Below are positions 1-64,000 of a stretch of DNA of 64,000 bases, in pieces. The position numbers and the translations under genes are program-made. The DNA is taken from NCBI RefSeq assembly GCF_008831285.2, contig NC_045138.2:17174001-17238000 (forward strand). The letters run 5' to 3'. The notes under the pieces were generated by a model, which was given only the letters and a program-made list of their open reading frames with translations, did no database searches and was not told the DNA's origin. Positions within the stretch are counted from its first letter, which is position 1. Each line of letters opens with the position of its first letter. The DNA comes from Nymphaea colorata. Lineage: Eukaryota.

Positions 1-189
1 ATTCGAAAGTATGAAAATTCAATAATTGGTATACAATATCCAATTCGAATCGAATGCAACCTTTTCAACGTCCCTATCCATGCATGGAAGGAACATCAGA
101 AACCATCTCCTCCTTCGAGAAGCGTTCTGTTTTATGTCCTTGGGAACACACATCAAACACCCTCGATGGATCTCAAGTAGTTGAAGTAC

Positions 190-2300
190 CTGATCCCGCG
201 GACGACCGCAAGGTGAGCATCACAAACAACACCCACAAGCTCAATCTTGTAGGGATGCCTTTCCTTCACTCCCTTCTCGCTTGGGACGTCGTCTTCTTCA
301 GCTTCCTCCCAGTAACTCTCTGTCACAGAGCCATCATCTGCAACCTTGTACCCGACTCCCATCCTGTAGCGCTTCCGGTGGACGTTCCGAACCATCTCAA
401 TCGTCTGCCGCACGAACGGCTCCCACGACAAGGTCCCGTCCATGATCACGTCCCGCCCTTCGTTCAGTGCGGTCACCAGCAGCGATGAAGCCGCATCGGT
501 CGATGACTGGTGCACCTGATTTTACCAAATGCATCGAAGAATTCAAATCAGTATTCATGCACGGCAAAATTTCATCTCCTCTTCACATTTGATTCGCGTA
601 CATCATATCTGTTTTGTTTCCCTTTTTCTTATTCTTTTATGCAGCAATACGTGGTCTTCTGTTCTGTTCTGTTTTCCTGCTCAGCATTTCTTCCTCTCTC
701 TCTTTCTTTTTTTCCTTTTTTTTTTTTTAATTTTATTTTATGGCAGGTCAGCTTTTCTCACTTTTATTCGTCAAATTAAAACTCTCTTTTACTTGATATT
801 CGGTATTTCCTTTTTCGATAATTAATAACATAATTTTTCATTGAGTAGGGAGGTCCTAAGTCTCTTTGCTTTAATGCCGATGCACTCATTAGATTAACTA
901 TAATTTTACATTCATGAGGAGAGGCCCTCAATTTATTTGCTTTAATGTCGATGAACTCATTAAATTAACTATAAGGAATCAAATATCAATATATGAACTT
1001 TTGATTTTAATTTCTTAAAACATGCAATATAAATGTAATGGCAAGTTGTATTTATTGGATTAACTACAATAAATCAAAAAATGACTTAAATCTTAATTAT
1101 ATTGATACTTGTGATTTTAATCTCTTAAATCATTCAATATAAATGTAACAACAAGTTAAATCCAACCTAAATACATTGTGTTTGTGCGAAAGTTTCGACC
1201 AATTATGCTATAAGCCAGTTGACAAGGGAGAGAAAGGGGGAGAGAAATACCAACTCGGCCGTGTGGATAATATCATCGTGTCCTCTAGCACTAAGGGCTC
1301 GAAAAAGAACGTCTGTCTCCTTGAATGCATCCGCCTCAACCACCACTGCCTCCTTCGCCGCCTCTGCCCAATAACCCCTGCATTTCAGCCCACCCATTCA
1401 GTCCTATTAGCTCCTCATCAAGACCCACCCACCCACATGGGTCCGAGCCATCTGGAACCCACTTTGCCTAAATACCCACAAGAAAAGTAGAAGAGGACCG
1501 TAACGGTCCGGTTTAGGTCAAGTTCAGTTTGCCCGGCTCATACTTTCTCATGATCTTCTTCAGCACCGTGCTCTTGCCTGCACCCATGCCACCACCCATG
1601 AAAAGGAGGACCGGTCTCGGGTCTTTGGTCTTTGCGGTGACCGTCTCGACGGCACGTGGCAAGTCCCGCTTCGTTCTGATTGCATTGATCTCGTCAACCA
1701 ACGTCGAGAAAACCCTAGTCACCTTGAGGTTCTTGGTCACCTTGTCGATCCTTTGTTTCCTGTGGGCATCAACGGGCTCAGTGCAGGTCAAGTGAGTCTA
1801 AGTTGGTCCGCACCCGGTTAAGTTAGATTACAAAACTCACCTAGTAGCTGACATTACCATGCTTTTGAGCTTGCTCTTTTTCAGCTTACCGACGCTTAAA
1901 GCCTTCATAAAAGAAGCAAACAAGCACAATAATGAGCTAACTTTAGAGAGAGAAAAGGCCAGTAAATTCATTGTTAACCTCGTTAATGAAGGACGATGCG
2001 TGGCTCCAATGGAAGGCCAAGTAGCTAAGGATGCATGACTCGAGCTCATTAGTGAACAGCTCATGGAGTGCCGTTGGGTCATTTTGATTCTCGAAAAAAT
2101 CGTAGATTTCTTCCGGGCTACCCTTTGGATCTCTTAGGTAGTCATCAGCTAATTTGCAGAAGTTTGGGTATCGCTCTGCATCTTTGATGCCCAAGTGCCT
2201 AGCTGCATTTTCCAAAAACAATCTCCTCATATGTCTTATACTAAATGAGGGAAGATAGCTTTAATTAATTATCCTTATAAATACTCTAATTTAAATAATT

Positions 2301-2331
<31 letters not shown>

Positions 2332-3714
2332 TAAAGTTATTTAGATAAGATTTATTGATACATAGTATTGCATCGGGCAGTGTGTTCAATCACATCCTAA
2401 GCATGTTATGATTGGATGGAGAGCTCGGAGGATTTGAGTTCATATAAATATATATATAAGTTGGTAAACAACTTGGATAAGGAACAAAGACCAAACCCAT
2501 TAAAATTATTATTAAAGTATTTTTTTTGGCAACCTAAGAGATACAATTACTTTAAGCGCGATTCGTCAAGAAACATAGTTTAAGTTATCATTTTTTAATT
2601 TAATAACGTTTTCTGAATAATTGAAAAAATGAATGGTTTTTATAGTATTAACATTTTTTATAGTAGAAAGATAAACTTTTTTTCATAAAAATAATATGAA
2701 TTAAAGCACGATTTGTATTAAATTAATGTTTATAAACGCATAAAAATTCATTTAAAACAATTTTTAACACAAATTTAAGAGATTCGGATTTTACCGGTTT
2801 TTACCAAAATATGTATATAGCGGGAACCCCTTTCTGTGAAAATTTTCATTATTTGCTTTGCTGTTGTCGTTCGCTTTTCTATAATTCAATACGGATGATG
2901 GATGTGACCCCTCACATTTAGTTGGTTCCAATGGGTTTCTTTTTATATAAAGATAATTTTCTGTCGGTGGTTTTTTGCTGAGAAACAAAAATATATGCGT
3001 GGCATTTAACATGATCTGGGGCCGCCCATGGAAAGGTTTGGCCAATATCATTTTCCAAGACATAGAGTTTACCGTCCTTTTATGATGAATTTAACTATGC
3101 AAACATACTCATAAGATTGTTTAATAAGCTTATGTCATAAAATTCATTGAACACGTTAAAGCTAAGATTGTTTGACCCATTGTTTCATGATCTTTGGTGA
3201 ATGAGAAGCAAATGACTATATCTAGAGAGAAAGAGAGGTTTGACCCATTGTTTCATGATCCTTGGTGAATGAGAAGCAAATGACTATATCTAGAGAGAAA
3301 GAGAGAGCCGATAAAATGAGAATGTATATCAAACTTTAAAGACAAGAAATCTTCCGAAACAAACCCCAAAATAGAAGCAATAGGAAAAGATTATGTTTGT
3401 AGGAGTGCGTTGGAAAGGAAAACAAGTAAAGAAGAAATTTTTTTTTATGGAGCTTTCTTTGCAGCTTTTTATATATGAAAGGGCATTTACATACATAACA
3501 ACAGACATATTTAAAGATATTAATTTGAAAATGAAGATGTCAATTTGAAAATGAAGAAACCTTGAAAGGAAAGGTTGAGGGAAAGGAAGATGTAGCAGTG
3601 AACGTTACCAACGTAGTGAGAGAAGCGTTCAATCTTCTGGAGGCGACCATCGTCGCCGAAGACCAGGAAAGGGACGAGCTCCCGCTCGCTCCCTCTCGTC
3701 AGCTCGCGCTCCAT
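190..3714 (-). CDS. Zeta-toxin-domain P-loop kinase, calmodulin/Ca2+-dependent NAD kinase (NADKc)-like. Exons 3609-3714, 1979-2202, 1841-1902, 1544-1759, 1251-1377, 190-515; continues beyond the window start.
   Basis: GT-AG junctions join the exons in frame: ...KIERFSHYV|ARHLG...YLAFHWSHA...RKQRIDKVTKNLKVTRVFSTLV...PVLLFMGGGMGAGKSTVLK (Walker A)...VVEADAFKETD...HQSSTDAASSLLVTALNEGRDVIMDGTLSW...HPYKIELVGVVCD. These motifs match the plant At1g04280-like family as I recall it. The start codon is uncertain. Confidence 0.9.
836..972. repeat. Two degenerate ~70-bp tandem copies in an NADKc intron
   Basis: tttgctttaatg(c/t)cgatg(c/a)actcatta(g/a)attaactataa occurs twice. Confidence 0.7.
3170..3306. 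repeat. Near-perfect ~68-bp tandem duplication
   Basis: gtttgacccattgtttcatgatc(t/c)ttggtgaatgagaagcaaatgactatatctagagagaaagagag x2. Confidence 0.9.
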
Positions 3715-4014
3715 TGCAGCGAAGCAGCCGGACAGCACCTTGCTCCGAAACGCACTTGGAAAAGAAAAGAACAAGAAGATAAAAGAGAGAACAGCGACGC
3801 TGGCTCCAAGAAACGTGATCTCTTCTGTTATGTCTTCCTCCCTTTCTCCGTGGAGAAATGTCTGTTTTCCCTGCGGCGGAGAAATAGATGCAGGAGTTTT
3901 GACTGCGAGAGGAAGACGAGACGGAGACGGATGGGGGGACTGTTCAGTTGTTGAAACTTGATGAGAGTGGTGGGTCGGTGGGGACTGCAGAGTCCCCATA
4001 ATTAAATATGACGT

Positions 4015-4312
4015 TGTGCGACTCGAGGTAACTCGAGGTTGATTATGTTACAAACAAGTTGCGCTTGAACTTAATGGAAAACTCGAGTTCATGAACGAGT
4101 AAAGTTTAAATTACGTGAACTCAAACTCAATTAAACTTAGAATAAGCAATTTCATTCTAGTTTTTGATTTGTAATTTTCAAACTTAAAATTATAGGAAGA
4201 GATTAAGTCAAATGAAGAGTTTGGTAAATTAGCTTAAACGAATCAAGCTCGAGCCGAGACTTGGTCTATTGAGTGAGTTTGACCGAGCTCAACTTGCAGA
4301 TGTGCAGCCCTA
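4015..4312. mobile_element. Degenerate CTCGAG/GAGCTC-rich MITE in the NADKc promoter
   Basis: Repeated actcgag/gagctc motifs; ends in cagcccta like the copy at 39147-39499. Confidence 0.5.
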
Positions 4313-8587: not shown

Positions 8588-8697
8588 GTAACTTCAAATT
8601 GCTGAAGCTTCTAAATGAAATTGCTGAAGCTGACTGATTCATATCAGAGCAAAGTCAGTAACTTTAAATTGCTGAAGCTTCTAAATGAAATTGCTGA
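8588..8697. repeat. Direct repeat, ~40 bp x2
   Basis: gtaactt(c/t)aaattgctgaagcttctaaatgaaattgctga occurs twice. Confidence 0.8.
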
Positions 8698-10191
8698 CCT
8701 CTTATGAAGAGTGTTTATTCAGATAAAACTCTTTGGTAATGATCACCATGAATGACATACAATTGCCTCCATCAAACTTAGTATGGTGAGCACTTTTTAA
8801 GATTTGTCTAACTTGAATCAATGACTTTTAGTATCAAGAACCATTCAATACGATTGCAATGACCATCAAATTTCATAAGCACTTTGAACGATTTGTCCGA
8901 CCTGAATGAATCATCAGTCATTCACTCACTCGATGAGCTCTAAAATCAAGTTGAATTTGTTAAAGTTGGATTCAGCCATAACCTGAACTGTTTAAATATT
9001 CATAATCATAGTCCACAACTTAACATATGCACAATTATTGCAACTTCAACTTATAGGTGCAATTAATTCAACTTCAACTTATGGCCCATGAACTAGCTCC
9101 CATGAGCAAATGAAAACGAGATCCAAGGTTCTTTTCGTCACACATTATTATATCTCGACTCTTCGTGTCAAATTATGTAAGTATTGTCACCTCCACACAA
9201 TTAAACAAAATGCAAAAAATAAGGGAAATTTTTAAAAGCACGCTTAAGAATTGGCAGTAATGAAAAACATTACTAAATTTTTCTTATTTTTTAAAGGAAA
9301 TTTAAATTTTTCTATGGTTAGTCAAAGAGATATTGCTTAGCGCATTTAAACTTTTGTTCAATGGCTACTAAAACCATCATGTAATCATGTATTAATATTA
9401 ATGAAATTATAATTTATTTTCACTAGAAGTATTTTGGTTTTTTATCAGCTTTTCCTAAGCTTAAATTAATAATAACCTACCATTAGTAGGCAGATTATCA
9501 TTTTTTACTAATGGTGTAAACTTAGGCGACTTGTTGCGGGCTCCTCCTGAAAATTTACAAAAAGATAATTGTAGCAAAGTTAAATAAAATCCTTGACGCA
9601 TTTGTTTTGAAACTTTAGTTTTTTGCTCCAAAAAATTCTGGCATATATGTTAATGTTAGTGTAAATATGTCAAATAAATTAACCAAACCACTAATTTTCA
9701 CTGCCAATATTATTACAAACATATAAACAAATGGCTTTCATAATACATTAATCCCTTCAGAATCCTATCCGATGCATAATATCACCAGAAACATGCTGAA
9801 ATTTGTGAACTATGATTGTATTTCTCTTTTTGCTTTCGAGTTCCAAAGGGTTAGGCACACCCCTCTTGTTCATTCCGAAATAAGGTGATTTGTGTAAAGC
9901 GATCAGGCATACATCAGAAAACACTGAATCACCCAACATACCCAAGAAATCCGCAACTCCTATTCTAGTTTCTTAATTAGAAGGAAAGAAAAAGATCACC
10001 ATGTTCATGACCATGGTTATTTACACCCCAATAATCCAACCTTTACCCAACACCAACTTTACCTTGTTCAACAGATAGATAATATGAAAAAGAAGAAGGA
10101 AAAATAACATGAGAACTTTGGCTAAATTTTCTTTCTGTCGCTGTCTAATTGCCTAATGATATGAACAACAGAACAAACTCCTGGGTATATT

Positions 10192-10339
10192 GGCAGGAAG
10201 CAGAAGGAAAGAGTAACGAGAAAACTATTGGTATGAGTGGAATAGGAAAGACATAACATTTACAATATGGAGTAAAAAGCGTCTTCCCTATTCCACCTAA
10301 CCTGAGTCTTCCAGAGACTCCTTCCCTCTTCTCACTGCC
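10192..10339 (-). ncRNA. MIR482: miR482/2118-family precursor hairpin 1; predicted mature ~10230-10251 UCUUUCCUAUUCCACUCAUACC (3' arm)
   Basis: The 5' arm GGTTAGGTGGAATAGGGAAGAC (10281-10302) pairs with the mature-like 3' arm and there is an extended lower stem. The sequence fits the miR482 consensus UCUUUCCUAnUCCnCnCAUnCC. Confidence 0.88.
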
Positions 10340-10390
10340 CTTTCTCCATTGCTGCTGCTTGCGTTCTGCTGCTACTGTTGTAACAACAAG

Positions 10391-10541
10391 CAAAAGAAGC
10401 ACAAGGAAAGAGTGAAAGAAAAACCATGGCATGGGTGGTATGGGGAAGCCAAGAGCTCAGTTGTCTGCCAAAAGCATTAATGGCCTCCCCGACACAACCC
10501 AGCCTCCGTTTTTCTGAGCACTCCCTCCCTCTGCCCTTTTG
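10391..10541 (-). ncRNA. MIR482: miR482/2118-family precursor hairpin 2; predicted mature ~10426-10447 UUCCCCAUACCACCCAUGCCAU
   Basis: The 5' arm GGCTGGGTTGTGTCGGGGAGGCCA pairs with TGGCTTCCCCATACCACCCATGCC; flanks AGAAAAAC/GTTTTTCT and a further lower stem. Confidence 0.85.
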
Positions 10542-13148
10542 TCGCTTCCTCTTCAACTCTCTCCACCAAAGCTCCTAACCAGAAGAAGGGGTTAGATTAC
10601 AAGCCAAGCGAGTAAAAGGCCATGGATGGCAGGACAGTGGTTTTGTAAAACTGCTTTAGTTGCCCATGGTTTCAAAGGGCAGCTTCCTCCCGCTGTCCCT
10701 CTTTTCAATTCTTTAATGGGGATGCTCCTGCATGGAAGAACTGGTTTTAATGCGGGTGTTGACTCCGTGCTCGACAATAATGCAAGCTCTGGTGGCCCAC
10801 TGGTCACGGCCATCGAGGCAGCCGAGAAGCTGCCGGGTGGCGGGTGGGTATCCCATTTGAGAAACTCGGAAAACTTATTGAAGTGCTCGTGAATTGCTGG
10901 ATATTTCCGAAGGACTACGCCCAACAATAGTTGGGCACCCTACCATACTGTGGACACGTTTGCTTCCTGCAAATTCAGATAAGGATTTACTCATCTGTCA
11001 ACAATTGATGGGAGGGACGGCGGTCTGTGGGTCTGTATCTGACGCCTCCTAGTTTGACAGCGGAAAAGGCGGAATCTGATTAGATGGTATCTGTTTTTAA
11101 TTGATTTCTAGATATTGTTTTTTAAAATTTCAGACTAATTCGCTGGCTTGGTTGGACTTGGCTAAAAGTGTTAAATAGTTAGTTTCAGAAATAATAAAGG
11201 AAAAGTAAGTAATTAAGTAATATGTAAAAAAATGTTTAACGAAGTTTAGACTATACATGGCCTCCTTGAATCAAACACCGAATCAACCATCAATTCTGGA
11301 CTTATAATAACATTGAGTTAGGCTATATATATGATTTGTAAAGATTACATGGCACCTGAGAAATGGAAAAAGCAGCTAAAGAATGGTTATAAAAGAACGA
11401 CCGTTAGGGCTATGGGCTAAATAAAGTCAGGGGCATGGACTATGGGCAAATGTGTTTTCAAAGTCAGTAATCCTGTTGTGGAAGCAGTGAGCCTAGATTC
11501 CAATGAAATTTTTATAGCATTTTGAACTTTGTTGGTGGCTGCCATTTTTTAGAAAACTTTATAAAATTAGTTGTAAATGAAGGTTATTGCTGTAATTAAC
11601 CATCATATTCGCATTTCTAGCTCTTTTGAGAGTTAACACAAAAAGGTAGGTTGAAGACTGAGCTAGCGGCTCATTGAGGGGGCATTTGATTGCCCTTGTT
11701 CTAACATCCTCACGATTTGAGAATAATGGATTTAAGATCAAAACTCTACTTTCTCCTATCTTATCAACTTGATGTTTCTTGTATAGTTTTTCACACTTAC
11801 TAGTATGATTAACGGACAAGAGATGAGAGATTAGTTCCTCATACTATCAATTTGTTCTCTTCGCTTTCCGGACATGAACATTTTGATGCTGCAAACTGAT
11901 AGAGATTACCTTAACCTCAGCTTTGTTTATCATTGGATTAAAATGCGTCTGTTGTCAAACATAAACTGCGACAAGTGTCTACATGTGAATTAACCACAGC
12001 TTAATTTTTTTGCAGGCTTAGAATTGTGTGTTTGATTGGAAAGAGCTTCATTGGTTACCAGGGAGCCTTGCCTATCTACCAATTCTATAAATGCTTAACT
12101 TGATCGTGAAAACCAACGGAGCTAAATCAAGTTACCCATTATGTCGTTGTTTTATGTTTGGTACACATCTCAATCAATAATTTTCTTGCCCAGTGATTCT
12201 TGGGTAATGGATGTGATGGAAACTAGTAGGCAGCTGCCCAAACGCTCTCTTGTTTGGCGGTAGGATAAAATACTCTACTAGATGCACAGTATGAACCAAA
12301 AACGTACTTATACAGAACAATCAAACTGACCTAGCTGGAATAAGCTCACAACGCCTGAATGTGGGCTTGGCCAGTCTAACTCAGCGCAAGGCTCTCATTA
12401 CCGCGCAGACCATGCTTCTAAGTCCCATTAACCGGGTTTTTAAACCTTTGTATGGAATAAGTTTAACCTATGTGACTCAAAACTCAAAATTTCAAGACCT
12501 GTGAAGATGAAGTAGGATGTAACCAAAGTTGAAGAAGGGAAATAGTTACCAAAGTTTGATTATCTTACAATGTCTTTTCTTATCCCTTTTTATCTGTTTC
12601 TTCATCACTTATGGTGTGTTTTGGCTGCCACAAATGTCATTTTTCAATTTCAGAAAGATACGGAGAGAGTGGGGGTTAAAGACCCTTCAATCAAAATCTG
12701 TTTGCTTCTTGGCTCACATTTCCTATTTTTGATATGTACATGGCGGAAATTTATCCTCAAGCACCAATCTTCTGTTTTCATTTCCACGCAGAAGATAACT
12801 AAGAGCCAGCCTTTGCTCAAACATGGTGCAAAATCAACTGATCTTTAATAAAAAAATAAAAATAAAAATAAAAATTAAGCAGCCTGCTATTTTCTTATAC
12901 TCAGCAAATCTTCGTTGAAATCCATGTCTAAATGGCTTTTAGGAGCCGTGGAAATCCATTGAGCAGTCCTATATCACCCTTCTCAGTTGGTCCAAAAGTG
13001 ATCAATTTCCAAAGGATCAGTCATGTTATGTCACAAGTTGAAGAAGATGAAGTTACGAGAAAACATCTTTCTAAGTAACAATACTATGCATAAATAAGCC
13101 ATATTTGAATTAAGGAACATACCTTTGCAGCATCAGGGTTCCTCCATC

Positions 13149-13594
13149 TTGGCAAGGAGTAGAAGGAAAGAATTATGAGAAAAGTTAGGAATGGGTGGCA
13201 TTGGGAGGGTTCACGACCCAACTTCCACGAAGGCAAATCAGGTTTAGTGAGCAACCTTTCTAAAATAAAGCACTACCAGAGATCACACCGTTTTTTGTAA
13301 CAAAAACACTGCATTAGTGTTTCATAAATCTGTCCCAAAAATTGAGGCAGATTCATGAAACACTGAATTCCAGTGTTCCATGAATCTACCCCAATCTTTG
13401 AGGCAGATTCATGAAACACTAATGTAGTGTTCATGATATGAAATGCGTTGTATAGTTTCTAACAGTCCTTCATTTGAAAGAGATCACTCACCAAATTACC
13501 TTATTTTCCTTTGAGTATTTTGAGTGGAAGAGCATCTTCCCAGTGCCACACACCCTGGATTTTCCAATGACTCTTTCCCCCTGCCACATGCCTA
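13149..13594 (-). ncRNA. MIR2118: miR2118/482-family precursor hairpin 3 (long fold-back); predicted mature ~13186-13207 CUCCCAAUGCCACCCAUUCCUA
   Basis: The mature-like sequence closely resembles canonical miR2118 (UUCCCnAUGCCnCCCAUUCCUA). The 5' arm (13534-13594, GGCATGTGGCAGGGGGAAAGAGTCATTGGAAAATCCAGGGTGTGTGGCACTGGGAAG) pairs with 13149-13210 over ~60 nt. Confidence 0.8.
13305..13431. repeat. Nested palindrome (four alternating ~25-bp units), MITE-like, at the apex of hairpin 3
   Basis: aacactgcattagtgtttcataaatctg...cagattcatgaaacactg aattc cagtgttccatgaatct...cagattcatgaaacactaatgtagtgtt. Confidence 0.8.
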
Positions 13595-13648
13595 ATAACA
13601 TATCAAAAAGGTTAAGGAGCCAAGAAGCACGAACCATGGCTAAAGAAA

Positions 13649-13758
13649 GAAGGAAAGATTGATTGGAAGACTACGGAATTGGTGGATTTGGGAAAACAAG
13701 ATTTGTGTTGTCTTTTCCAATCCAACCAAACGCTACTTTTCCAGTCTCTCTTTCATTC
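13649..13758 (-). ncRNA. MIR482: miR482/2118-family precursor hairpin 4; predicted mature ~13673-13696 (UU)UUCCCAAAUCCACCAAUUCC(GU)
   Basis: The 5' arm GTTTGGTTGGATTGGAAAAGACAA pairs with TTGTTTTCCCAAATCCACCAATTC across a short loop; lower stem CTGGAAAAGTAG/CGTAGTCTTCCAA. Confidence 0.82.
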
Positions 13759-15496
13759 CCAGTTTGCACATGTAACTGGGCAAAGTCATCAGGTAGAGGA
13801 AAAAAAAAAAAACACAGGGAAAGTAAAGAGGATGAAATTGAAGGAGCCTCCTGGAGGAAGCCATTGCCATTGTTGATCTCATCTGGTACCCATCTGCAAG
13901 CATGAGCCTCACATTTATCAGCAGAAGAAAACAGCTCATCACAGCCCATTGGTTTACCAATACCGCTAACTTGGCAGGTGTCGGATTCAATTCTTCTAGT
14001 TTACAGCAGTAAAAAGGTGAAAGAAAGCATCAATAATTGAATGTTACTGCTCATTGGGATGCTATACTTGACTTTGACTAAGCATCGGCGATGGTGGCCT
14101 CACATCACAATGCGTTAATTTAGTTGATATAAAGCGCTGGCATACCCAGAAGGGGCATTGAGATTCGGTCTCAGAATGGAACTTTGGTGCAATCCCCAGT
14201 TAGTTTGGATAAGGGATGCCAATGGCGTGGATATAAGAAAAAATTACATATCGATGTAGTAAAAATGGTAGAAGGCTTTTGGAAAGGAATACGATGGGTG
14301 CCTCAAATGGCTTACAGTGGTAGTTGGGAGAAGGTACTGTGGAACGTTGAGTCTTCGTTTCAATTCTCGTGACTCGTGGGTGTTAGGTTCTCGGGCCATG
14401 TGGAATGGGTTCCGGTACCTACCTGATGTGAAAATGCATCAGTATCATGTCTAATGCTGAAAGCAGATCAAAACCAAGAAAGGTTTGGGGTTGCTCTTTT
14501 TGTGGCAGTAAGTCGTAACCTCTTGTTCATACAGAAGGAATATGATAGATATTCATAATTACCAAAATTCCGATGTGATTACATCTTAAACTTTGGATGT
14601 GTTTTTCATCAAACTAATCAATATCCAGATACTCGAACATGGAACTGGTTATCTCTGATTGGAACTCATCTGCTTAGTTTGAACTTCGGATTTACAGTCT
14701 TCCAAGCCATATTTAAAAAGGGACTTTATTTTGAAACTAACGTTCTTTTAACATGATTTTTTTAAATATTTATCATTATCTCAATGAAAAGGGGATATAT
14801 ATATATCAAAACACTAACACGGCCATTGTGAGGACATGCATTAAAAGCTGGATTTGATCTTTTGAATGTACTTTCTGTCTCATGTTAGTCGGCTTTGATT
14901 ACCTTCATGTAGTAATAGAGAACGAGCGCCTTACAATTCTCGAACAATGGCCATTTTAAAATGGACCAGTAAAACATATTAAGCTCCATTTTGTACTTAG
15001 ATTGCCATGGTTAAACAGGTAACTCATCTTCAGAAATTTCCCAGCACCAACACAACTTTTGCAAATAATTGTCAAAAAAGAAGTGTCAGGTTGCACCTTC
15101 AAAATGACTAGCTCTCAACTTATGGAAGTTGGGACCTCGGAGACTGGAGAGATGCTTCAGCTTGTAAGCAAATTGCGAGAAAAGTTATCTCAACTATAGC
15201 TAAAGCAAATGGTTTGCATTCAACTATAGATCAATTATATACATATTGAGATTAATACTCAAAGACAAAGCAATTTCAGCAGGAAAATTTAACTTCCAGA
15301 ACAAAATTCATTACATCAGGGAAATAACCTTTGACAGAGTAGCCCATGGTTCTAGGTTAAACTCTTCACGCCCATCAATATATATCCCATAATTAGAAGC
15401 GACACAAAACTGTCCTAAATCCAAGCAAAAGCTATGAAATAGACCTTCGTCACAATCGATAAAGTCCAACGAAGAGACAACATAATTTTGTTCTTA

Positions 15497-23239: not shown

Positions 23240-26200
23240 TCAAGAGACTGAAGATTTCCTAGCATAGGCGAGCACCATCACCAAATCTTTGGCTGAGGAA
23301 CCTGAAGCAGCTGCTACCCTTTTCGAAGTGGATGACTTTCTCAGCCACAAGTCTACAAGGCTATGCATTGCCAAGCTTGGGAGGACAGGTTGTCCACAAC
23401 ATGAGATTTCCACCTGTTAGGGGGAGAGAAAGGGAAACATTATCCATCTCAACGAACCTTTCATACTGTTTTCTAAACTAAAACATAGACAGGTGGCTAG
23501 CATCAAATTCTCATGAAAATAAATCATCAGCATACACTAAGACTGATAACGCTTTTCATCAATTTATTCTGCTGACAGAAATGGAAATGCATAAATTTTT
23601 CTAATAGAGATAGAGAATCAACTAAAGAATAGTTTTTGTATGAAAAACGTTGAGGCAACACAAAGGGATTATGAAATCAAACTGCAGATAAAAAAAATGC
23701 TCTAATGAAATTCAGGTAGAAATATTCAGATTTCAGAATGCCCTTTTCTGACATTATCATTTGCATGGTCTAAGTACTCTCTCGGAAAAATTCTAGACCA
23801 AGAACCATAGTATAAAGTACAATTTACAATTCATGCAAGCTGCTGTTGCAAACAGCAGGAAACAAATAAAAAAGGGAGGTGAATACACCAAAACAAAAGG
23901 AAGCTGGTAGCCTCAAGATACAAGTGAAAACATTCACGATGCTCAATACTGAAAGTGAAGAAAATTAGTTCAAGAAAATATCAAATGGATTCAGCCAATA
24001 GACCTACTAGCATACTTAAATCAGTCAGACAAGAGTTATGAGTCAATATATGCAAGCAAGAAAATGTAACAGTAAATTACAACGTACAATCAGCTACCAA
24101 ATTACAAACAAGGCAAAATGAAAGTGGTAAACATAGATATGTTTTGCAATTCAAACAACTATTATGTTACAACTGTGATACTATATCTCGAAAACATTTG
24201 AGAACATGATACAAATAGAGGTTTGACTATGATGTTTGCAGCTACTCAAACAGCAACCAACATTACTGACATGCTAAAAATGTTAATTATGAATTGAGAG
24301 CTGCTTCTGGACACTTGCACGCATAGCACATAGAGGTAGACAGAAATTGATAATTTAGAGAACTGCAGCTATGGCCGTTTAACATATTCCTTGTCTAAAA
24401 TAACATGAAGCTACACTTAGATGCATGCTGCCTACTTGGACTTGCATAGGCAAGCTGCAGACCAAGCTCGATCCTGCTTTAGCTGGGTCATACAGGCATC
24501 TCACAGTCCAACTCTACTGGTTAATATGTCTCAGTTTATATCTGATCGGTAGGCAACAGTCCATGAGGTCAAGTAGCCAATTAAAGAACACATAACCACT
24601 AAATCCCTGTAAATTTTGAAGCAAAATTAAACCCAACAGAAAAAACCTGGCACGCAGGATAGATAAGAGAATTCAATATCATTAAGACATTAACCCTAAT
24701 CCATGACTTAATAGTGATTAGGAGGCGGAAACTTAAAAATTACATTAAGAGTCCACAAACTTATGAAAATAATAAGAAAACTATCTCCTAAAACATAAGA
24801 GCTTCACACGACCCCAAACTTATTCACTAAAACTTCATCTTTTTAAACACTCAACAAAATCTACAATTGTAATAGCTCCTCTCTGTGACAGTAAAAAACA
24901 ATATAGAATGACTGTTTCTCTGAAAATTCACCAATTGGGCAGAAAAATTACCTCTGCTTCACTCTTGAGATCTAGTTTCTTGACCAGGTATTTCTTTATA
25001 AATGACACTGGAATGTTTCCATCTCTGCAACAGGAATACCAAAACACATGATCAGTGTTTAATATCTAAGAAAGAAAACTAACTTCCCATGAATAGATTG
25101 CAGAAGCTCCATGTCTGGAAAGGAGATAGTAAAACCATGAACAATTGAGTATCACTGGCTATTAAGTGCATAGACATTAATCGACAATTTGTTGGCTCTG
25201 AAACACCTAGCGGCTTACTATTTTAACAGGTCCACATACTTCAAAGAGAAAAGGAGAAAAAGAAAAAAAGACACATGCAATATGATAACTAAAAATGGCA
25301 CTGCAAAAATTTTATTAAAACAACTAAAAAGCAACAAACTTTTTTGCACTAGCAAACATAAGGAATACGATACCCCAACTAGAAAGAAGTTTAATCATTT
25401 CGAGAATCAATTATTTATGCTTGTGAAATAAAGTTGTATATCCTATAAAAGTTAAATGAATTTTCCCCAAGATTTGATCCAAATATCCTATGCTGGGAGA
25501 GATGAAAAGAATATGATCTTTTATAATCAGTAGCACTGTAGCAGAGCCAACCAGGGGAAAAGATACTGTTTTCTTGGCAACCACCCCCACCCAACCCCTA
25601 TCAGAAAAAAAAAAAGTTGGGTGAGGAGCAAACTCAGCTAAAAGCTCTCTAGGATAAGTGGATAACTGAAATTTCCCATCAATATGCTTAGGATAAAAAA
25701 TGGCATCTGGGATATGAGGAGGGAAAAGCAACAGAAGGTAAAACCTCGCACCAGCACAAAGTTGTGATGCATTAATTTACCAAATAAAGATACTGATATT
25801 CAGCTAGAAAAGAGGATATAAATATAAAAAAGAGAAAGCTGTTTCATATGAAGCCTTCAGTCATTACTTGCTTCCCTCATGGATCTTCATTCAGACACTT
25901 GCTAATCAATTGTAAAAGGGAAGCAGATTAAAAAATGAGCAAAAAACCTTAGTGCAGATTATGCAAATAAAGTATTATTCAAAAAACAAGAAGACTGTAC
26001 ATACCATGTATATGATAAATCAGCTATCTTTGAAGATCTTGAATAGGAAATGTCCTTCTTTGTTACTTATGAAAGCACCTTGAATATGAAAACTTAAGGG
26101 CTTTCGAGTTTCAATAGCATTTGGAAAGTATATGGCAGGCGTGTCGCAAAAGGTTTTACTCTAAAACATGGGTTGGCTTATGATGAAACCTTCAACCTCA

Positions 26201-29200
26201 TCATAAAGATAGGTACAGTTTGAAATTGTTTTTGACAGAGGATCAAGGAGGAATAATAATTAAATCGATGTAAAGAATTCGTTTCTACATGGAAATTTTT
26301 AGTGTACCATGAACAGCCCTACAAATATGTTTATGTAGACCATGTTGCCTATGTAAATAAAAAAGGATCTATTTATGATTTAAAGCGACCCACATGTTCA
26401 TGATTTGAAAGTTTTTATCAAAAATTCGAAAATATGGATTTATTCGTTCACAACTTGATTATCTCTTTTCTATTTCTGAGAAGAAAAAACGTGTGAAATT
26501 TTTTTCGCATATACATGGATGATATGATAATAATAGGAACCCTAAATAGAATATTAAGATATTAAGGGTCTTTTTAAGAAAAAAATTTCGATTGACGGAC
26601 CTTGGAAAGCTACAATGTTTCCTTGAAGCTGCAAATGACAGGATGGAAGATAAACTTGTTATGAGTTATGACTCAACAGAACACACTTGATTTGTTTGCC
26701 AAATTTGGTATGCAGGATTGCAAACCTGTAGCTACTCCAACTCCAATTCATTAAAAATAAAGTGAGAATGATGGAGAAGTATATTAGATCCTACCAATAA
26801 TCGAAGCGCAGTTGGCATTGACCTTCACTAGAGCATACATCGACCACATAATCAATCGGAAATCGCATTTCATGCACAAACCAAGAATTGTGCACATGGA
26901 ACCCATTAAAGGATTTTATGATACTTAATGGCACAATAGTAAATGGCTTTATTTATGAGAGAAGAAAGCAAAACCATGATATTTAATATTGTCTGCAAAT
27001 TCAGATATGGATTAGGTGGTGATCTAGATGAGAGACGAATCAGTATCTGAATACTATATCTTTATTAAAGGGAAACCTAATTTCATGAAGCAGCAAAAAC
27101 AAAAACGTAGCACTACGTCAAGTACAGAAGTAGAATATCGAGAAGCGGCATCAGCTGAATACAAATTAACTTGAGGATGAACTTGGAAAAATTTTACCAA
27201 AATCAGTTCTTTATTGTGACAACTAGATTGCCATTTAGAATTCATTGAATCTCATACAACAAGGAGAACAAAACATATTGAATGGAGCAGCATTTCATTA
27301 GACAAAAGATTGAACATTAAAGACCAGAAGCAACATATATTGGCAAAGAGAATCAAATTTCCAGGGGCGAAGGGAGGGGGGGCCCACCTAGGCCGTGGCC
27401 CCACCCCAACTAATTTAAAAAAAAAAAATTACATTACAAAAATTGAAATTTTTTGGTTGAGTAATGTATCTTTTAGATTCGGATTTAATTTGGCCCTACC
27501 CAGATTTAGTTTGGCCCTACCCGAATAAGTTTGATGGACCGTTTGGCCCGCCCCTGAAAAAAATCCTGGCTCCGCCCCTACAAATTGCAAACCATATTCA
27601 CAAAAAGACTAATAATTGAGGAGTCTCTAGTTCCTTAAATCAAATTGAGCATGGTATAAAGGTACGCACAACTTGAGGGAGGTGTTAAGATGTGCTTATT
27701 TATATTGTATCTTGCATCTAATAACGCCCTTTTTTCAAACAAAACACAAATAGTGCCATTTTATAGCGTCATTCATTATCTAGACATATTACTTAAGGGC
27801 AGTTTAGTCTTTAGTGCCCCAGTATATCTTATTTAGAGAACTTGCCCATTGCAGAAGCAATTGCTCACACATCTCTTCTACTGAAATCTGGTTCGGATCT
27901 GCTCACCTCTTCCTTTTTTAAGCATATAATTCAAATGCTAATATGAACATACTTTGTTTTCAGGAATTCTGAGGAAGGAATTCTCAAGATTATTTTTTGA
28001 GCATAGTTATGCAACCCCTTCATTTATATCACAAGAAAACCTCATTATAACTTGTACTTCGCATGATAAAACTTTTCTTAGCAAGAAAAATTCAAAATAC
28101 TGCTTCAAAGATATGATATGATATGTTTGAATAGAAAAGATGACAGACACTATAGAACCAATGAAAATGCAACAACCTTAAAGATGGTTCAACTATTCAA
28201 AAAATTAATTACCAATGCATCTTAGATCAGCCAATGAACAAATGAAAGACCAGATGTAAAGATGAACCAAACTGTACAGCATGCCAGAGATCACAGAAAC
28301 TATAACAATCATGATGAAGAATTTTAGAGGACAGATGATGAACCTGCACAACTTACTTTATTCTTAAATAGCACGCAGAAATTTGTGGCAGAGCCTCATC
28401 TCCTTCCCTGAATCAACCAAGCAACAAGATAGAAAAAAGAAGAGTTAGTAGACCATAAGAACATTAAAACCATGATCACAAGAGCGCTTTATCAATAGTA
28501 TTTTCTGGACGCATTTGTCATTATTGGAGTAATAAGAGAACTGTTCTCACTGGTTATCAGAAGCCACAAGGGAGAACCAAACATGACTTATTTTCTTTTC
28601 ACGCTTCAAGCAGGAAGGAGTAACCATGGGTTGAGATGGGATGCTTATCTCCCTCGACATAGCTGCTCGCTTCCGGCTAATCCCATGAAGCCTTCTAGCT
28701 TTACCCAACCCTGAACGTGCAGAAGCAGTGCCTTTTTTATCATCCTGAAGTTTTGGTTTACGAGCATGCTCCTTAAACTTGGCCTTGTGAACATTCACAC
28801 CACTATCGGGGTTGTCAGCTTGCTCTGCCTTGACAGAAGAAGCTTGAAAGTTTGACTTAAATGACTTCGACCTAGTTGCAGCCTCTAACAGACAATTCAA
28901 AGGTTTCCAAAGACCAGATTTTCCAAGCTGCTGCTCTGCTCCATTCTCTGTATTGATATTACAAACGTAGTTTGATGGCTCTCCATTGGATGGATTCTGC
29001 CAAAAGATTTCAAGGTAAACAGTTAACATATACTTTTGACAATGTAGTCGACAAAGAAAATAACCTTATTCATTAACTATAAAAGAAAAAGAACTCCATT
29101 CCTAAGAGAGAAAACAGCATAGAAATAAGCAAACATGGTAAAACCTCATCTTGTTAAATTGTGCAATACTAGAAATCTCACTTCAATAACTCCAGTTCCT

Positions 29201-32135
29201 TTGCTATATAAGAGTAATTCTGTAACAAGTTTTTGGTTGAACCTGATGAAAAGTTTCCCTGAAAATTCTGGTTAAAAGAAATCATTCCAATCCCATTATA
29301 TATTATGTAGGCATAATGTGATATGAGGAAACCATGAAAACATGGACATAGAGACTTTTAGAGCATAGAAATGTAAGAGAGAATGGAACCTGTGTCCTCC
29401 AATGTCGCTTTGAACAATAAATAATGGCTACTACAAACTTTCATGCCAATTAACATATGCTATTAGCAGACCATTCCCTTACTTACCTGCCTTTGTGTGA
29501 TTGTGTCTTGGGTCTCATGAGAACATGAGCTATCATGATGGTCTTCTGCATTTTCTGCTTTGATTTTTACAGGTTCGTCTTTGGCAAAGTTCGACCCACG
29601 TAAAGAAGCAGCTTTTCTAGCAATAGATTTAGTTCTTCTCCCAGTTAAGCCAGTTTGTGTTGTTACACGTGGGGTACTAATAACCAATGATGAAAGAGAC
29701 CTCTCCTTTCTCCTAACAGGCAATGTAATGGAAGGCACAATATCTGCTGCTTTGCCCTTGCTTCCTTTGAGAGGAAATATTTTGTTTCTCACATCTTGCA
29801 AATTATGATCTGGCCTGAATAAGGATTCAGTCATTCAGTAGCGTTATTCAATGCAAAAATAAGAAATGGGATATAGTATCCCAAATCAATTTATTTACAA
29901 CTCCAACAGAAACAGTCTCCAATGAAAAAAAAGTTATGGTGCAACCACTCTATGCAGGGCTAATCACATCCTAAAAGCTAGGGCAAATGTGACTCAGTTC
30001 CAGTCATTTCATGCAAAGAACTCATAGTGGTATTCACCAATTCAAATGCACTGACTTAAAGAAACAGATTGTCAAACAGAGACACATACTAAGTACTGAT
30101 AAAATTGTTTGACATTGATAGTGTGAAACAAACATAAACTAGATTCAGATGGAGAAGATTGAGGCCAGATGATTACGTGTAGTGTGGTTACGGATGAAAT
30201 GTTGGCAGTTCCATGTAAGACTGGACAATGAAATGTCAGCCAGACCAATTCTATTTATGCAGCAAGGTGACATAAGTAATGATGTCTGGCTTGTAAACAT
30301 CAGAAACAATTTAATCAGAGAAAAATGAGGACTACCAAATCACAACATTAAATTAGAAATCAAGTGCACACCTAATAATTAATATGTGAATGATTTATTT
30401 AATGACCTCTAGGAAAAGGACATGATATCAAGCAATGGTTAATCCTCATTTCAAACAGAAAATCAAAACGCTACACCCTTTTATTTTTCACCATCGTTGG
30501 CTAAGATGGAGATAGAGAAACAATTATCACAGTTCTTCTAGTCAAGAAAAGAAAACACATTTGGCATTGCCTGCAAAGTAGTAATTATTCCATACTGACA
30601 TAGTTCTAAGGTTGGTAAAATAAGTATCTGGATCAGTTAGTGATTATACCTTCACCATTAAAAAAAAAAAAAAAACATTTTATTTAACACAAAAAAAATG
30701 GTAACTCCCAAGTATAAAATTTTGGAAGGAAAGATGTTGAAATGAAATCCTTAAGAAAATACCCAAATCAAGGGGACTGTCATCGCAATAAACGTCTAAG
30801 CAGAATGTTTCTCAAAAGTTACTTGTGAGTACAGATCTAATGCCTCAAAACTTGGAACTTAGGGACCAGTTTTGAGAAGGATTCAAGGCTCGCACGAATG
30901 AAAAGGAACCCAACAAGATGAATTGACAATATCACATAAGAACAAATCAATTACATTCTAAACAAACAAGATAGAATGACAGAGCTACCTGAGTTTCTCC
31001 ACAGGAACACAACCGAGATCAGTGTTGCAAATAGGGCAGCAGTCAACCTCCTCATCAGTGAGTTTCTCATAAATACACCTCCTGCAGACTACCACATTTG
31101 AAAACAAAAACGTGTCAGACACAACACTAGAAGCATTTTACTGATACACTACCCAGAAAAAAAACTTTGCCAATTGAAAGCAGAAGTAAAAATAAGCATG
31201 ACCAATAAATGACAACTACAAATCACCAATTCTGACAAATACATGCCCATTCACGTCTGGCTGTCAAGCTGTGTCATCCAAATTAATTATCTTCTGCATC
31301 CAAGTGCAATTTTCTCCAGCCGCTTTGACCAAAGATAGAGAGACACAATGAGGATCTCATCTTTGAGATCCAAAAGTAACTAGATATAGAAAGTGAAAGT
31401 GTTTACACCTGTCTTAGTGTATGCTATATTGCTATATGATTGCAGTTACCGCAGATATGTCCAAATTCTCCTATAAGCCTACAAGTCGGCTAACAAAAAA
31501 TACGCCCTGTTTCCATGCCAATCCCAAAGTAAATCATCAAACTTACGCATTTTTACTTCATTATGGACTTGACTTCGCAGGTTCATAAAGAATCATCCAC
31601 ACCCGTTTCATTACTTATGGACCTTTAAAAAGTCAAAAAGAAAGAAAAAAATTTACATTAATTTCACATTGTTTCTTCAGCGTTTCTGCAGATAGGATAA
31701 CCCAACTTTCTTCATGTTGATTACAATGAGTCTTCAAATTTTTCACGCCACATGGAGACATGAACGTCACTATTTCAACTGCGGCTCACAAACTACACAT
31801 CCAGGGCCACCGATTCACGAGTGCATGCCATGCATATGCACAATATAAACATAAACGTAGATCCAATACGGATTCGTGCACTTCTGCCGTCCGCGTGCAT
31901 AAGCACAGAGAGAGAGAGAGGCTCGTACAGATCAGCAGCTTATTTATGCAGATATTAGAGTAATCGAGTAGAAGAATAAATCAAACTGACTTAAGGAGCA
32001 AGAGAGACCCAGAATCTTACAAGTGTGAAGGCATTCCGAGATGGTGGTGGCTTCTCTGAGCAGTTTCTTGCAAAGAGGGCATGTCATGCAAGCTGCAAGG
32101 GTCACCCTCCGGACCTTCACCACCTGGTTCATCAT
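23240..32135 (-). CDS. DRIP2: DRIP/BMI1-type C3HC4 RING E3 ubiquitin ligase (PRC1 component), ~428 aa. Exons 32021-32135, 30989-31088, 29487-29814, 28551-28996, 28357-28407, 24952-25024, 23240-23413.
   Basis: RING CPLCKKLLREATTISECLHT|FCRRCI...CPIC; LRPDHNLQDVRNKIFP; RRKERSLSSLV; LWKPLNCLLEAA; C-terminal RAWUL-like WFSLVAS...LPQISACYLRIK|DGNIPVSFIKKYLVKKLDL...VMVLAYAR. Phases are consistent throughout; the exact DRIP1/DRIP2 paralogue is not resolvable. Confidence 0.93.
26040..27935 (+). mobile_element. Decayed Ty1/Copia RT-RNaseH fragment with PPT and the start of a 3' LTR, in DRIP intron 5
   Basis: Frameshifted relics resembling ARLVAKGF..YDETF (~26135), DVKNSFLHG (~26265), YMDDMIIIG (~26510), SKKQ..SSTEVEYR (~27090) and RTKHIE (~27265); PPT TTGAGGGAGG followed by TG at 27683. 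Outer ends are approximate. Confidence 0.85.
27362..27580. mobile_element. hAT-type MITE nested in the Copia relic
   Basis: TIRs CAGGGGCG...CGCCCCTA; 8-bp TSD caaatttc/caaattgc. Confidence 0.85.
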
Positions 32136-51176: not shown

Positions 51177-51381
51177 CACATCTCCGACCGAAGACCCTGA
51201 GCTAGGAGAACACCGGAATTTATGGATCCGGAAGGGGTCGGCCCCAAAACCCTACAATCCGCCGGAGGAACGAACCCTAGTCGCCGGAATCGTAACGGGA
51301 AGGCGAATTTAAGGCCGACGGAATCAAGGATAAAGGCTGCGGCAGTCGCCATCGGGAGGGGAGGGCCTCTGGTGGAGGGAG

Positions 51382-63596: not shown

Positions 63597-63908
63597 ATGC
63601 ATTGGCAGCAGAGGCTTAAGCGGCCGAGGGTGATCATCGTCTCATTGCTAGCCGTCTCTGTTCTGGCTCCTATATTGTTCTTGTCTCACAGAATCAACTA
63701 TTTCTCGAATTTTTCGGGTAAATTTGCGAACTCCCTTGTTCGTTTACTTATTTTGGATGGTCTGTCGAGGTGCCAATTTCCGTTTTCTGAAAAGAAGGGG
63801 AGAAGGCATCCAGATTTCTTACCTATAGCACATTGGTATCTTCTAACTGTGTTTGCTTTTCATCCATTTGAAGTGCGCAAGGAATTGGCTGAAGAGTTCA
63901 GCAATATC
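63597..63908 (+). CDS. Galacturonosyltransferase GAUT5/6-like, 5' end. Exons 63597-63717, 63874-63908; continues beyond the window.
   Basis: MHWQQRLKRPRVIIVSLLAVSVLAPILFLSHRI...|VRKELAEEFSNI: a type II membrane anchor resembling my recollection of the GAUT5/6 N-terminus (RILILSLLSISVFAPLIFVSNRL...RREFIEELS). The catalytic domain is not in the window. Confidence 0.75.
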
Positions 63909-64000
63909 GTAAGTGTCAAAAGGATTCAATTTCTTTTTTCTTTGATTGTTATTTGCTTTTGAAACGGAATGGATGTTAGTTTCTATGCTATTTATGTTCC

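What the first reader, a model, noticed from the sequence alone, without database searches (positions are those of the whole stretch)
10230..13696. Each predicted miRNA matches a different P-loop variant
Read on the plus (target-sense) strand, the four mature regions encode GMSGIGKT (10230-), GMGGMGK (10428-), GMGGIGR (13188-) and YGIGGFGKT (13672-). Variation includes non-synonymous positions (Ser for Gly, Ile for Met, Phe), not only wobble bases. Inference: the paralogues partition different NLR clades; hairpin 3, the most miR2118-like, may instead target non-coding PHAS transcripts.
Basis: partly seen in the sequence, partly recalled or inferred. Interest (0 to 1): 0.7.

Follow-up and report, generated by a model that had tools for sequence, protein, structure and literature searches.

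The report
Water lily miR482/2118 four-hairpin cluster
Four hairpins in a transcribed stretch of a water lily genome resemble the well-known plant miR482/2118 microRNAs, which likely dampen immune-receptor (NLR) genes; their differences fall mostly at third codon positions, so they likely cover overlapping target sets rather than one receptor class each, and only the fourth copy is a real oddity.

Summary
The four translations are exactly as reported. They are the reverse complements of four minus-strand MIR482/2118-type hairpins in Nymphaea (best match N. colorata), arranged as a duplicated pair (h4-h3, h2-h1) inside one transcribed stretch; h1 is already listed as a miR482 homologue in the water lily genome paper. 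The inference is mostly not borne out. Variation is wobble-dominated (6 of 7 third positions vary, 3 of 14 others; p=0.016). Ile-for-Met and Met are third-base changes, Ser is a G:U-tolerated change, and Arg lies at or beyond the 5' end of the predicted miRNA. h1-h3 all fit the canonical GMGGIGK core, and h3 fits it best, so P-loop fit gives no reason to send h3 to non-coding targets. None of the four literal peptides was among 5 Nymphaeaceae TNL P-loops retrieved. What survives: predicted target sets overlap only partly, h3 leans to Ile-type (TNL-like) sites in a small foreign sample, and h4 is a true misfit that prefers GIGG[F/L/I/V]GK. h3 also carries a 280-nt repeat-related foldback that extends its stem. 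The decisive test against the species' NLR set could not be run. An ordinary member of a known family.

The parts
10192..10340 (-). Hairpin h1, MIR482/2118-type precursor
   Evidence: MFE -74.8, MFEI 1.13, z -9.2; Rfam MIR2118 30.2 bits, E 0.005, below gathering score 85; identical precursor listed as miR482 homologue in PMC7015852 Table S10
10228..10251 (-). Predicted mature of h1 (22 nt; 10251-10230 or 10249-10228); target-sense reads GMSGIGK; the Ser base is a U paired to G in the star arm
   Evidence: register not shown by small-RNA reads
10391..10543 (-). Hairpin h2, MIR482/2118-type precursor
   Evidence: MFE -83.4, MFEI 1.02, z -8.2; Rfam MIR2118 45.8 bits, E 7e-7, below gathering
10426..10447 (-). 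Predicted mature of h2 (22 nt, 5' U in the miR2118 register); target-sense reads GMGGMGK
13150..13592 (-). Hairpin h3, about 440-nt precursor; 5' arm near 13535-13592, 3' arm near 13150-13210
   Evidence: whole fold -203.2 kcal/mol, z -15.1; the 3' arm finds no partner within 13150-13300 alone; both arms align to h1
13185..13207 (-). Predicted mature of h3 (22 nt; 13207-13186 begins with C, 13206-13185 begins with U); the Arg base 13207 is position 1 or outside
   Evidence: best fit of the four to GMGGIGK
13230..13511 (.). Foldback of about 280 nt in the loop of h3, core inverted repeat 13285-13451; its centre matches other transcripts with unrelated flanks (dispersed, MITE-like repeat, inferred)
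   Evidence: self-match 72% over 287 nt, -145.9 kcal/mol, z -16.5; I1; loose ends at 13320, 13360, 13374, 13413
13640..13768 (-). Hairpin h4, the weakest precursor
   Evidence: MFE -35.6, MFEI 0.71, z -3.3; Rfam MIR2118 only 18.1 bits, E 4.2 on minus and 21.1 bits on plus; aligns to h2 at 71% over 77 nt
13673..13696 (-). Predicted mature of h4 (22 nt; 13696-13675 or 13694-13673); target-sense reads GIGGFGK; the Ile base is an A-U pair where h2 and h3 have C-G
9800..13900 (-). Transcribed interval holding all four hairpins (likely one primary transcript or two tandem two-hairpin transcripts; strand inferred from folding, libraries are not stranded)
   Evidence: raw RNA reads of X19 at 9868-10735 and 12689-13990, none at 9000-9867 or 13991-15075; X1 contigs tile 9802-13800; contigs of four other organism labels cover all four mature regions

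Best explanation
This is a transcribed cluster of four miR482/2118-type hairpins in a water lily, arranged as a likely duplicated pair, whose predicted 22-nt microRNAs would cut NLR immune-receptor mRNAs at the P-loop codons and likely trigger secondary phased siRNAs, with target sets that likely overlap and are sorted mainly by codon usage rather than one NLR class each. Shown: the hairpins, their P-loop complementarity, transcription of the region, the h1~h3 and h2~h4 similarity, third-position bias. Inferred: processing to 22-mers, register, cleavage and phasing (from the family's known biology). The translated reverse complement is a compromise sequence, not a record of a target peptide: a U in the miRNA reads A or G, ATG and TTT at the variable fifth residue sit one change from Ile, Leu and Val codons, and position 1 does not pair with the target (established AGO biology, recalled). 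h1-h3 share the common GMGG[I/V/L/M]GK pool, with h3 and h1 leaning to Ile codons; h4 has drifted to favour GIGG[F/L/I/V]GK sites and probably has a smaller, partly separate set.
For: Third-position bias: 6 of 7 vs 3 of 14 columns, Fisher p=0.016; 9 of 12 minimum changes, counted by hand, binomial p=0.004; the same pattern is reported for the family in PMC5026261 (section 8 read) and PMC6377479 (passages). Share of synonymous encodings of GMGGIGKT scoring at most 4: h1 0.20, h2 0.16, h3 0.35, h4 0.02; h1 covers GMGGIGK (0.20) no worse than its own GMSGIGK (0.15). On 62 unique foreign NLR sites, none of which encodes Ser, Arg, Ile-2 or Phe, h1, h2, h3 hit 13, 8, 7 at cut-off 4, and h1 and h2 each hit all four core types. 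5 Nymphaeaceae TNL P-loops: GMGGIGK x3, GIGGLGK, GKQGIGK. In top-5 lists for 70 genomes GMGGIGK dominates, GIGG[I/L/V]GK is frequent, GMSGIGK appears once, GIGGFGK and GMGGIGR never. Solanaceae members are described as mainly generalists with redundant targets (PMC4700956, passages). Colinear arm similarity h1~h3 (77% of 60 nt, 73% of 55 nt) and h2~h4 (71% of 77 nt).
Against: No N. colorata NLR nucleotide set, small-RNA or degradome data could be examined, so targets and mature registers are predictions. My scoring only imitates psRNATarget (no gaps, no accessibility). Overlap in the foreign set is modest (15 of 21 hit sites by one miRNA only) and h3 shows a TNL-type lean (4 of 4 vs 2 of 50). 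The foreign set was fetched with a pattern that forces GMGGxGK, so it cannot show targets of h4. The one water-lily NLR-like P-loop with known bases is at best a weak target (h1 4.5, with a mismatch at position 10; others 6 or more). Rfam scores are below gathering for all four. h4 folds slightly better on the plus strand (-47.9 vs -42.9). Raw reads covered the hairpins well in 1 of 3 runs (X19); X20 gave 2 partial reads and X23 only repeat-derived reads. Global arm identity supports h1~h3 (0.67) but not clearly h2~h4 (0.59).
Confidence: 0.75

Rival explanations
1. Clade partition: each paralogue has been tuned to its own NLR clade or class, and the translated differences record real P-loop variants of expanded water-lily clades.
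For: N. colorata has expansions in TNL, CNL and RNL (PMC7015852 passages) and a 102-gene CNL lineage (PMC9140740 passages). GIGGFGKT exists in a real CNL of bean (P0003); GMGGMGK is a top-5 core in bean, peach and apple. h3 hits TNL-type sites preferentially in the foreign set. h4 covers 0.27-0.29 of GIGGFGKT encodings and the others 0.03 or less; a GIGGLGK P-loop exists in an N. colorata TNL (P0065), where h4 is the best of the four (0.06 vs 0.02 or less). Tomato miR482 favours CNLs.
Against: Wobble-dominated variation; Ser is G:U-neutral and Arg is at or beyond position 1, both uncompensated in the star arm; no literal peptide among 5 Nymphaeaceae TNL P-loops, a small sample biased towards the query's words; GMGGIGK is shared by both NLR types.
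Confidence: 0.17
2. One or more paralogues mainly trigger phasiRNAs from non-coding transcripts (TAS5-like or reproductive 21-PHAS loci); on P-loop fit the better candidate is h4, not h3.
For: Dual NLR and non-coding targeting is reported in spruce (PMC4651229), columbine and strawberry (PMC8368212), tomato and litchi (PMC10955497), so it is plausible in a water lily. h4 carries two changes away from the canonical core and hits 0-1 of 62 foreign canonical sites at cut-off 4. h3 is closest to the Rfam MIR2118 consensus.
Against: No PHAS or lncRNA set could be searched. Resemblance to miR2118 does not predict target class: h3 is the best P-loop match. Outside grasses few 21-PHAS loci with a miR2118 trigger were found, and miR2118 reads in N. 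colorata were below 100 (bioRxiv 2020.04.25.061721 passages). This can hold together with the best explanation.
Confidence: 0.25
3. h3 and/or h4 are decaying copies: h3 is impaired by its long insert and loss of pairing at the miRNA 5' end, h4 by drift away from the P-loop, so their 'variants' mean nothing.
For: h3 has C at 13207 and 13209 opposite A in the star arm; h4 has the weakest fold; large loops were judged to block processing in some spruce loci.
Against: The h3 insert is itself base-paired and extends the stem; h3-h4 is the more deeply covered half in 5 of 5 contig sets (contig depth is a poor measure of expression); both are retained under four other organism labels; the Ile change of h4 is compensated in the star arm.
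Confidence: 0.15

Closest known systems
miR482/miR2118 superfamily (Rfam RF01911 MIR2118; PMC5026261, PMC6377479)
   Same: 3'-arm 22-mer complementary to NLR P-loop codons, two registers 2 nt apart, diversity at third codon positions, conserved lower stem
   Different: Rfam scores below gathering; h4 carries two changes from the canonical core (GIGGFGK); mature reads not seen here
N. colorata miR482 homologue in PMC7015852 Supplementary Table 10 (row 'sly-miR482d-3p', Chr1 minus)
   Same: Precursor and mature identical to h1
   Different: h2, h3 and h4 matures were not found in that file (file is cut when stored); a homology prediction only
Polycistronic MIR482 clusters: Populus MIR482-MIR1448 (PMC3475693, abstract), columbine miR2118/482 clusters (PMC8368212), tomato miR482a/g within 200 bp (PMC4700956), litchi clusters (PMC10955497)
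   Same: Tandem paralogues about 200-500 bp apart with diverged matures
   Different: Here four copies as a duplicated pair in an early-diverging angiosperm
Long-stem spruce MIR482q-s (PMC4651229, section 9)
   Same: Precursor of 350 nt or more with the duplex in a long stem, like h3
   Different: The spruce arm retains NB-LRR coding similarity; the h3 extension lies on the loop side, shows none and matches a dispersed repeat

Membership tests
miR482/2118 superfamily | Stable stem-loop precursor with the miRNA in a paired arm | tested here: met
   z -9.2, -8.2, -15.1, -3.3; duplex pairing listed; h4 is marginal (MFEI 0.71)
miR482/2118 superfamily | Mature sequence complementary to the NLR P-loop coding motif | tested here: met
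   h4 fits canonical GMGGxGK poorly (minimum penalty 2.5)
miR482/2118 superfamily | Match to Rfam MIR2118 at the curated gathering score (85 bits) | tested here: inconclusive
   No hit at gathering; sub-threshold hits h2 45.8 bits E 7e-7, h1 30.2 bits E 0.005, h4 18.1 bits E 4.2, h3 none. The family's precursors diverge widely, so this is not taken as failing membership; h1 is independently annotated as a miR482 homologue
miR482/2118 superfamily | Variation among members concentrated at third codon positions of the target | tested here: met
   6 of 7 vs 3 of 14 columns, p=0.016
miR482/2118 superfamily | 22-nt mature with 5' U from a duplex with one-base asymmetry | tested here: inconclusive
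   Folds give a net extra base on the mature side in h1, h3, h4 but not clearly h2; 5' U is possible for all, for h3 only from 13206. No small-RNA reads
miR482/2118 superfamily | Precursor is transcribed | tested here: met
   Raw RNA reads over both hairpin pairs in X19, none in flanking 13991-15075; strand not shown
miR482/2118 superfamily | Cleavage of NLR or non-coding targets and triggering of 21-nt phasiRNAs | not testable with these tools
MITE (for the h3 insert) | Dispersed copies with unrelated flanks | tested here: met
   Loose ends with several different flanks in raw reads and contigs
MITE (for the h3 insert) | Defined terminal inverted repeats and target-site duplication | not tested
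   A long internal inverted repeat is present but element ends and a target-site duplication were not established

The most novel reading that the evidence does not exclude
In this early-diverging angiosperm the h4 copy has been retuned, with a compensated stem change, to a water-lily-specific expanded NLR clade with a GIGG[F/L]GK P-loop, the h3 copy covers Ile-type TNLs from a precursor whose stem was extended by a transposon-derived foldback, and the duplicated pair thus shows a microRNA cluster tracking amino-acid-level P-loop change and splitting NLR classes.
Probability: 0.15. Interest if true: 0.5.

Novelty: new member of a known kind. Interest (0 to 1): 0.25.

Why it matters
Modestly. 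It fills in the miR482/2118 locus of a water lily, a lineage near the base of flowering plants with a large NLR expansion: one hairpin was annotated, three were not found in that table, and two other 'miR482' rows of that table look like P-loop coding sequence rather than hairpins. It gives four defined sequences with which public small-RNA and degradome data can test whether early angiosperms kept both NLR and non-coding targets as spruce does. The clade-partition idea would matter more if shown, since published work finds mainly synonymous tracking and redundant targeting, but only h4 offers real grounds for it.

Tried and rejected
Whole genome: none held, so no target search in the species. 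Rfam at gathering: 0 hits. Run search listed no holder on record as RNA; raw reads were laid instead. The difference table for related organisms showed 40 of 369 rows, none inside a mature 22-mer, and one added base behind 13186 in X13; this is too cut to judge conservation. Composite-profile searches for NLRs with a GIGGFGK P-loop: 1 hit among 50 candidates, a bean CNL; 12 hits, all scored up by repeated matches, none with GIGGFGK, none of the 12 named as Nymphaea among those looked up; these searches are insensitive, so absence means nothing. The TNL search listed 120 of 188 hits, 3 of them Nymphaeaceae. No Nymphaeaceae CNL or RNL protein was obtained. Atlas search with the h4 frame gave only sub-0.9 P-loop look-alikes; rejected as evidence of a gene. 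No NB-ARC remnant in the window (best E 0.13) or in the hairpin arms and loops, so a recent origin by inverted duplication of an NLR was rejected. TATA-like words at 14133 and 11329-11565 on the minus strand were not taken as promoters. Earlier-findings look-ups gave nothing relevant. Literature searches found no paper on this cluster or its targets; the library lacks most subscription papers, and bioRxiv supplements (for example of 2020.04.25.061721, which sequenced N. colorata small RNAs) were closed and may list these matures.
Full report
Setting. The window is plant nuclear DNA. An exon at 28550-29065 (minus) matches a DRIP2 E3 ligase; the N. colorata protein matches at 150 of 150 residues, N. 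thermarum 148, Victoria 135. No whole genome is held.

Observation. The plus strand reads GMSGIGKT at 10230, GMGGMGK at 10428, GMGGIGR at 13188 and YGIGGFGKT at 13672. A degenerate P-loop pattern finds these four and the star arm of h1, 5 matches against 0.08 expected. They form one 46-nt repeat family. Each is the 3' arm of a hairpin on the minus strand: h1 -74.8 kcal/mol (z -9.2), h2 -83.4 (z -8.2), h3 -203.2 (z -15.1), h4 -35.6 (z -3.3). h1-h3 fold better on minus, h4 slightly better on plus. Rfam gives nothing at gathering but sub-threshold MIR2118 hits for h2 (E 7e-7) and h1 (E 0.005). The h1 precursor is listed letter for letter as a miR482 homologue in Supplementary Table 10 of PMC7015852; matures of h2-h4 were not found in that file, which is cut when stored.

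Anatomy. In transcript order the hairpins run h4, h3, h2, h1. Local alignment pairs h1 with h3 on both arms (77% of 60 nt, 73% of 55 nt) and h2 with h4 (71% of 77 nt), colinearly, which suggests duplication of a two-hairpin unit; global arm identity supports h1~h3 (0.67) but not clearly h2~h4 (0.59). All four keep a conserved lower-stem block; 11 of 51 consensus pairs among h1, h2, h4 show a change on both sides (three sequences only). The star arm of h3 lies about 330 nt from its mature arm; the sequence between is a foldback (72% self-match over 287 nt, z -16.5) that stacks on the duplex, and its centre matches other transcripts with different flanks, so it is related to a dispersed, MITE-like repeat (inferred; element ends not defined).

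Expression. Of three raw RNA runs with the same species label, X19 covers 9868-10735 and 12689-13990 and nothing at 9000-9867 or 13991-15075; X20 gave 2 partial reads; X23 only repeat-derived reads. The libraries are not stranded. Contigs of X1 tile 9802-13800 and stop at both ends. Contigs of 4 of 4 runs with other organism labels cover all four mature regions and also stop near 9750 and 13900. One polycistronic transcript, or two tandem ones, is inferred, not shown.

What the variation is. Over the 21 bases of G-x-x-G-x-G-K there are 9 variable columns: 6 of 7 third positions and 3 of 14 first or second positions (Fisher p=0.016); 9 of 12 minimum changes are at third positions (hand count, binomial p=0.004). 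This is the pattern published for the family (PMC5026261 section 8; PMC6377479 passages). Taking the 'non-synonymous' cases in turn: Ile in h4 and Met in h2 are third-base changes. Ser in h1 is a U at miRNA position 14-16, which pairs with the G of a Gly codon by wobble; the star arm still has G there. Arg in h3 is position 1 in the miR2118 register, or outside the mature if it starts at the next U; the star arm still has A opposite it. Phe in h4 is a real first-position change at miRNA position 8-10. The Tyr and Thr codons lie mostly outside the 22-mer.

What they could target. Using a psRNATarget-like penalty of my own (no gaps, no accessibility), the share of synonymous encodings scoring at most 4 is, for GMGGIGKT, 0.20 (h1), 0.16 (h2), 0.35 (h3), 0.02 (h4); for GMSGIGKT 0.15, 0.03, 0.05-0.09, 0; for GMGGMGKT 0.29, 0.58, 0.20, 0; for GIGGFGKT 0, 0, 0.03, 0.27-0.29. 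So h1-h3 share the common cores and h3 fits them best; h4 stands apart. At cut-off 4, h1, h2, h3, h4 hit 13, 8, 7, 0; 41 sites were hit by none, 15 by one, 6 by two or three; at cut-off 5, 20 of 42 hit sites are shared. By kinase-2 type, h3 hit 4 of 4 TNL-type and 2 of 50 CNL-type sites, h1 0 of 4 and 10 of 50, h2 2 of 4 and 5 of 50; 8 sites had no kinase-2 in view. Three Nymphaeaceae TNL proteins came up among 120 listed hits (TIR and NB-ARC confirmed); their 5 P-loops are GMGGIGK three times, GIGGLGK and GKQGIGK, none a literal match to the four peptides, though the search was biased to the query's words. In the top-5 cores of 70 genomes (PMC5026261 Table S10, no water lily included) GMGGIGK dominates, GIGG[I/L/V]GK is frequent, GMGGMGK appears 3 times, GMSGIGK once, GIGGFGK and GMGGIGR never. 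GIGGFGKT does exist in a bean CNL. The single water-lily NLR-like site with known bases, read from a mis-called row of the genome paper's table, scores 4.5 with h1 and 6 or more with the others.

Mechanism. Most likely the primary transcript is cut by DCL1 into four 22-nt miRNAs that guide cleavage of NLR mRNAs at the P-loop codons and trigger 21-nt phased siRNAs (family knowledge; PMC6377479, PMC4651229 passages). Which gene is hit depends mainly on synonymous codons, so recently expanded subclades that share codons would tend to share a miRNA, and Ile-rich TNLs may lean to h3, without a clean one-miRNA-one-class map. This agrees with Solanaceae members acting mainly as generalists with some specialisation (PMC4700956 passages). 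h4 probably has a smaller and partly separate set; its Ile change is compensated in the stem (A-U where h2 and h3 have C-G), which argues for retention rather than decay. Non-coding targets are plausible for any member and untested; similarity to the MIR2118 consensus (h3: 3 differences, others 6-7) does not decide it.

Comparison and novelty. It works like, and by the tests possible here belongs to, the miR482/2118 superfamily; mature reads and cleavage were not testable. Tandem and polycistronic MIR482 copies are known in Populus (PMC3475693, abstract), columbine, tomato and litchi; long precursors in spruce (section read). Searches found no paper on this cluster; N. colorata miR2118 reads below 100 are reported in bioRxiv 2020.04.25.061721 (passages), whose supplements were closed. 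Other papers seen: PMC9650292 and bioRxiv 2021.01.20.427321 (passages), PMC9140740 (passages and one supplement). Kinase-2 typing (DDxW vs DDxD), the non-pairing of position 1 and the DCL1 step are recalled knowledge.

Verdict. Real feature, ordinary family, observation accurate at the letter level but over-read; clade partition unproven and at most partial; the non-coding guess points at the wrong hairpin on present evidence. Interest 0.25.

Noticed in passing
window 13230-13511: A 280-nt foldback related to a dispersed repeat sits in the loop of h3 and extends the stem to about 440 nt; it is retained in contigs of other organism labels. It could yield further small RNAs.
   Followed up: partly
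PMC7015852 Table S10, rows 'gso-miR482a' (Chr2) and 'sly-miR482b' (Chr4): These two 'miR482' rows look like antisense P-loop coding sequence, not hairpins: the first reads VGMGGLGK on the other strand, NLR-like; the second reads GKGGVGKTT by eye, like a MinD-type ATPase (recalled).
   Followed up: partly
window 11189 and 11329-11331: X1 contig depth steps from about 6 to 27 at 11189 going towards h2-h1, just downstream of a TATA-like word on the minus strand; a second start for the h2-h1 pair is possible, but contigs cannot show starts.
   Followed up: no
window 13186: One contig of X13 has an extra A behind 13186, at the 3' end of the predicted h3 mature, beside a second contig without it: two alleles or homoeologues.
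   Followed up: no
window 8588-8700 and 9025-9080: Short direct repeats (40 nt twice at 70-nt spacing; 28 nt in tandem) downstream of the cluster.
   Followed up: no
window 23243-32135 (-), 45170-51251 (-), 63588-63962 (+), 153-4047 (-): Neighbouring genes: DRIP2 E3 ligase, an MRS2-like magnesium transporter (below Pfam cut-off per exon), and two further spliced genes not identified by Pfam. No NLR gene in the window.
   Followed up: partly
P0065, P0069 (N. colorata proteins): Both are tandem TNLs with two TIR and two NB-ARC stretches carrying different P-loops (GMGGIGK with GIGGLGK; GKQGIGK with GMGGIGK), so one mRNA could carry sites for two different paralogues.
   Followed up: no
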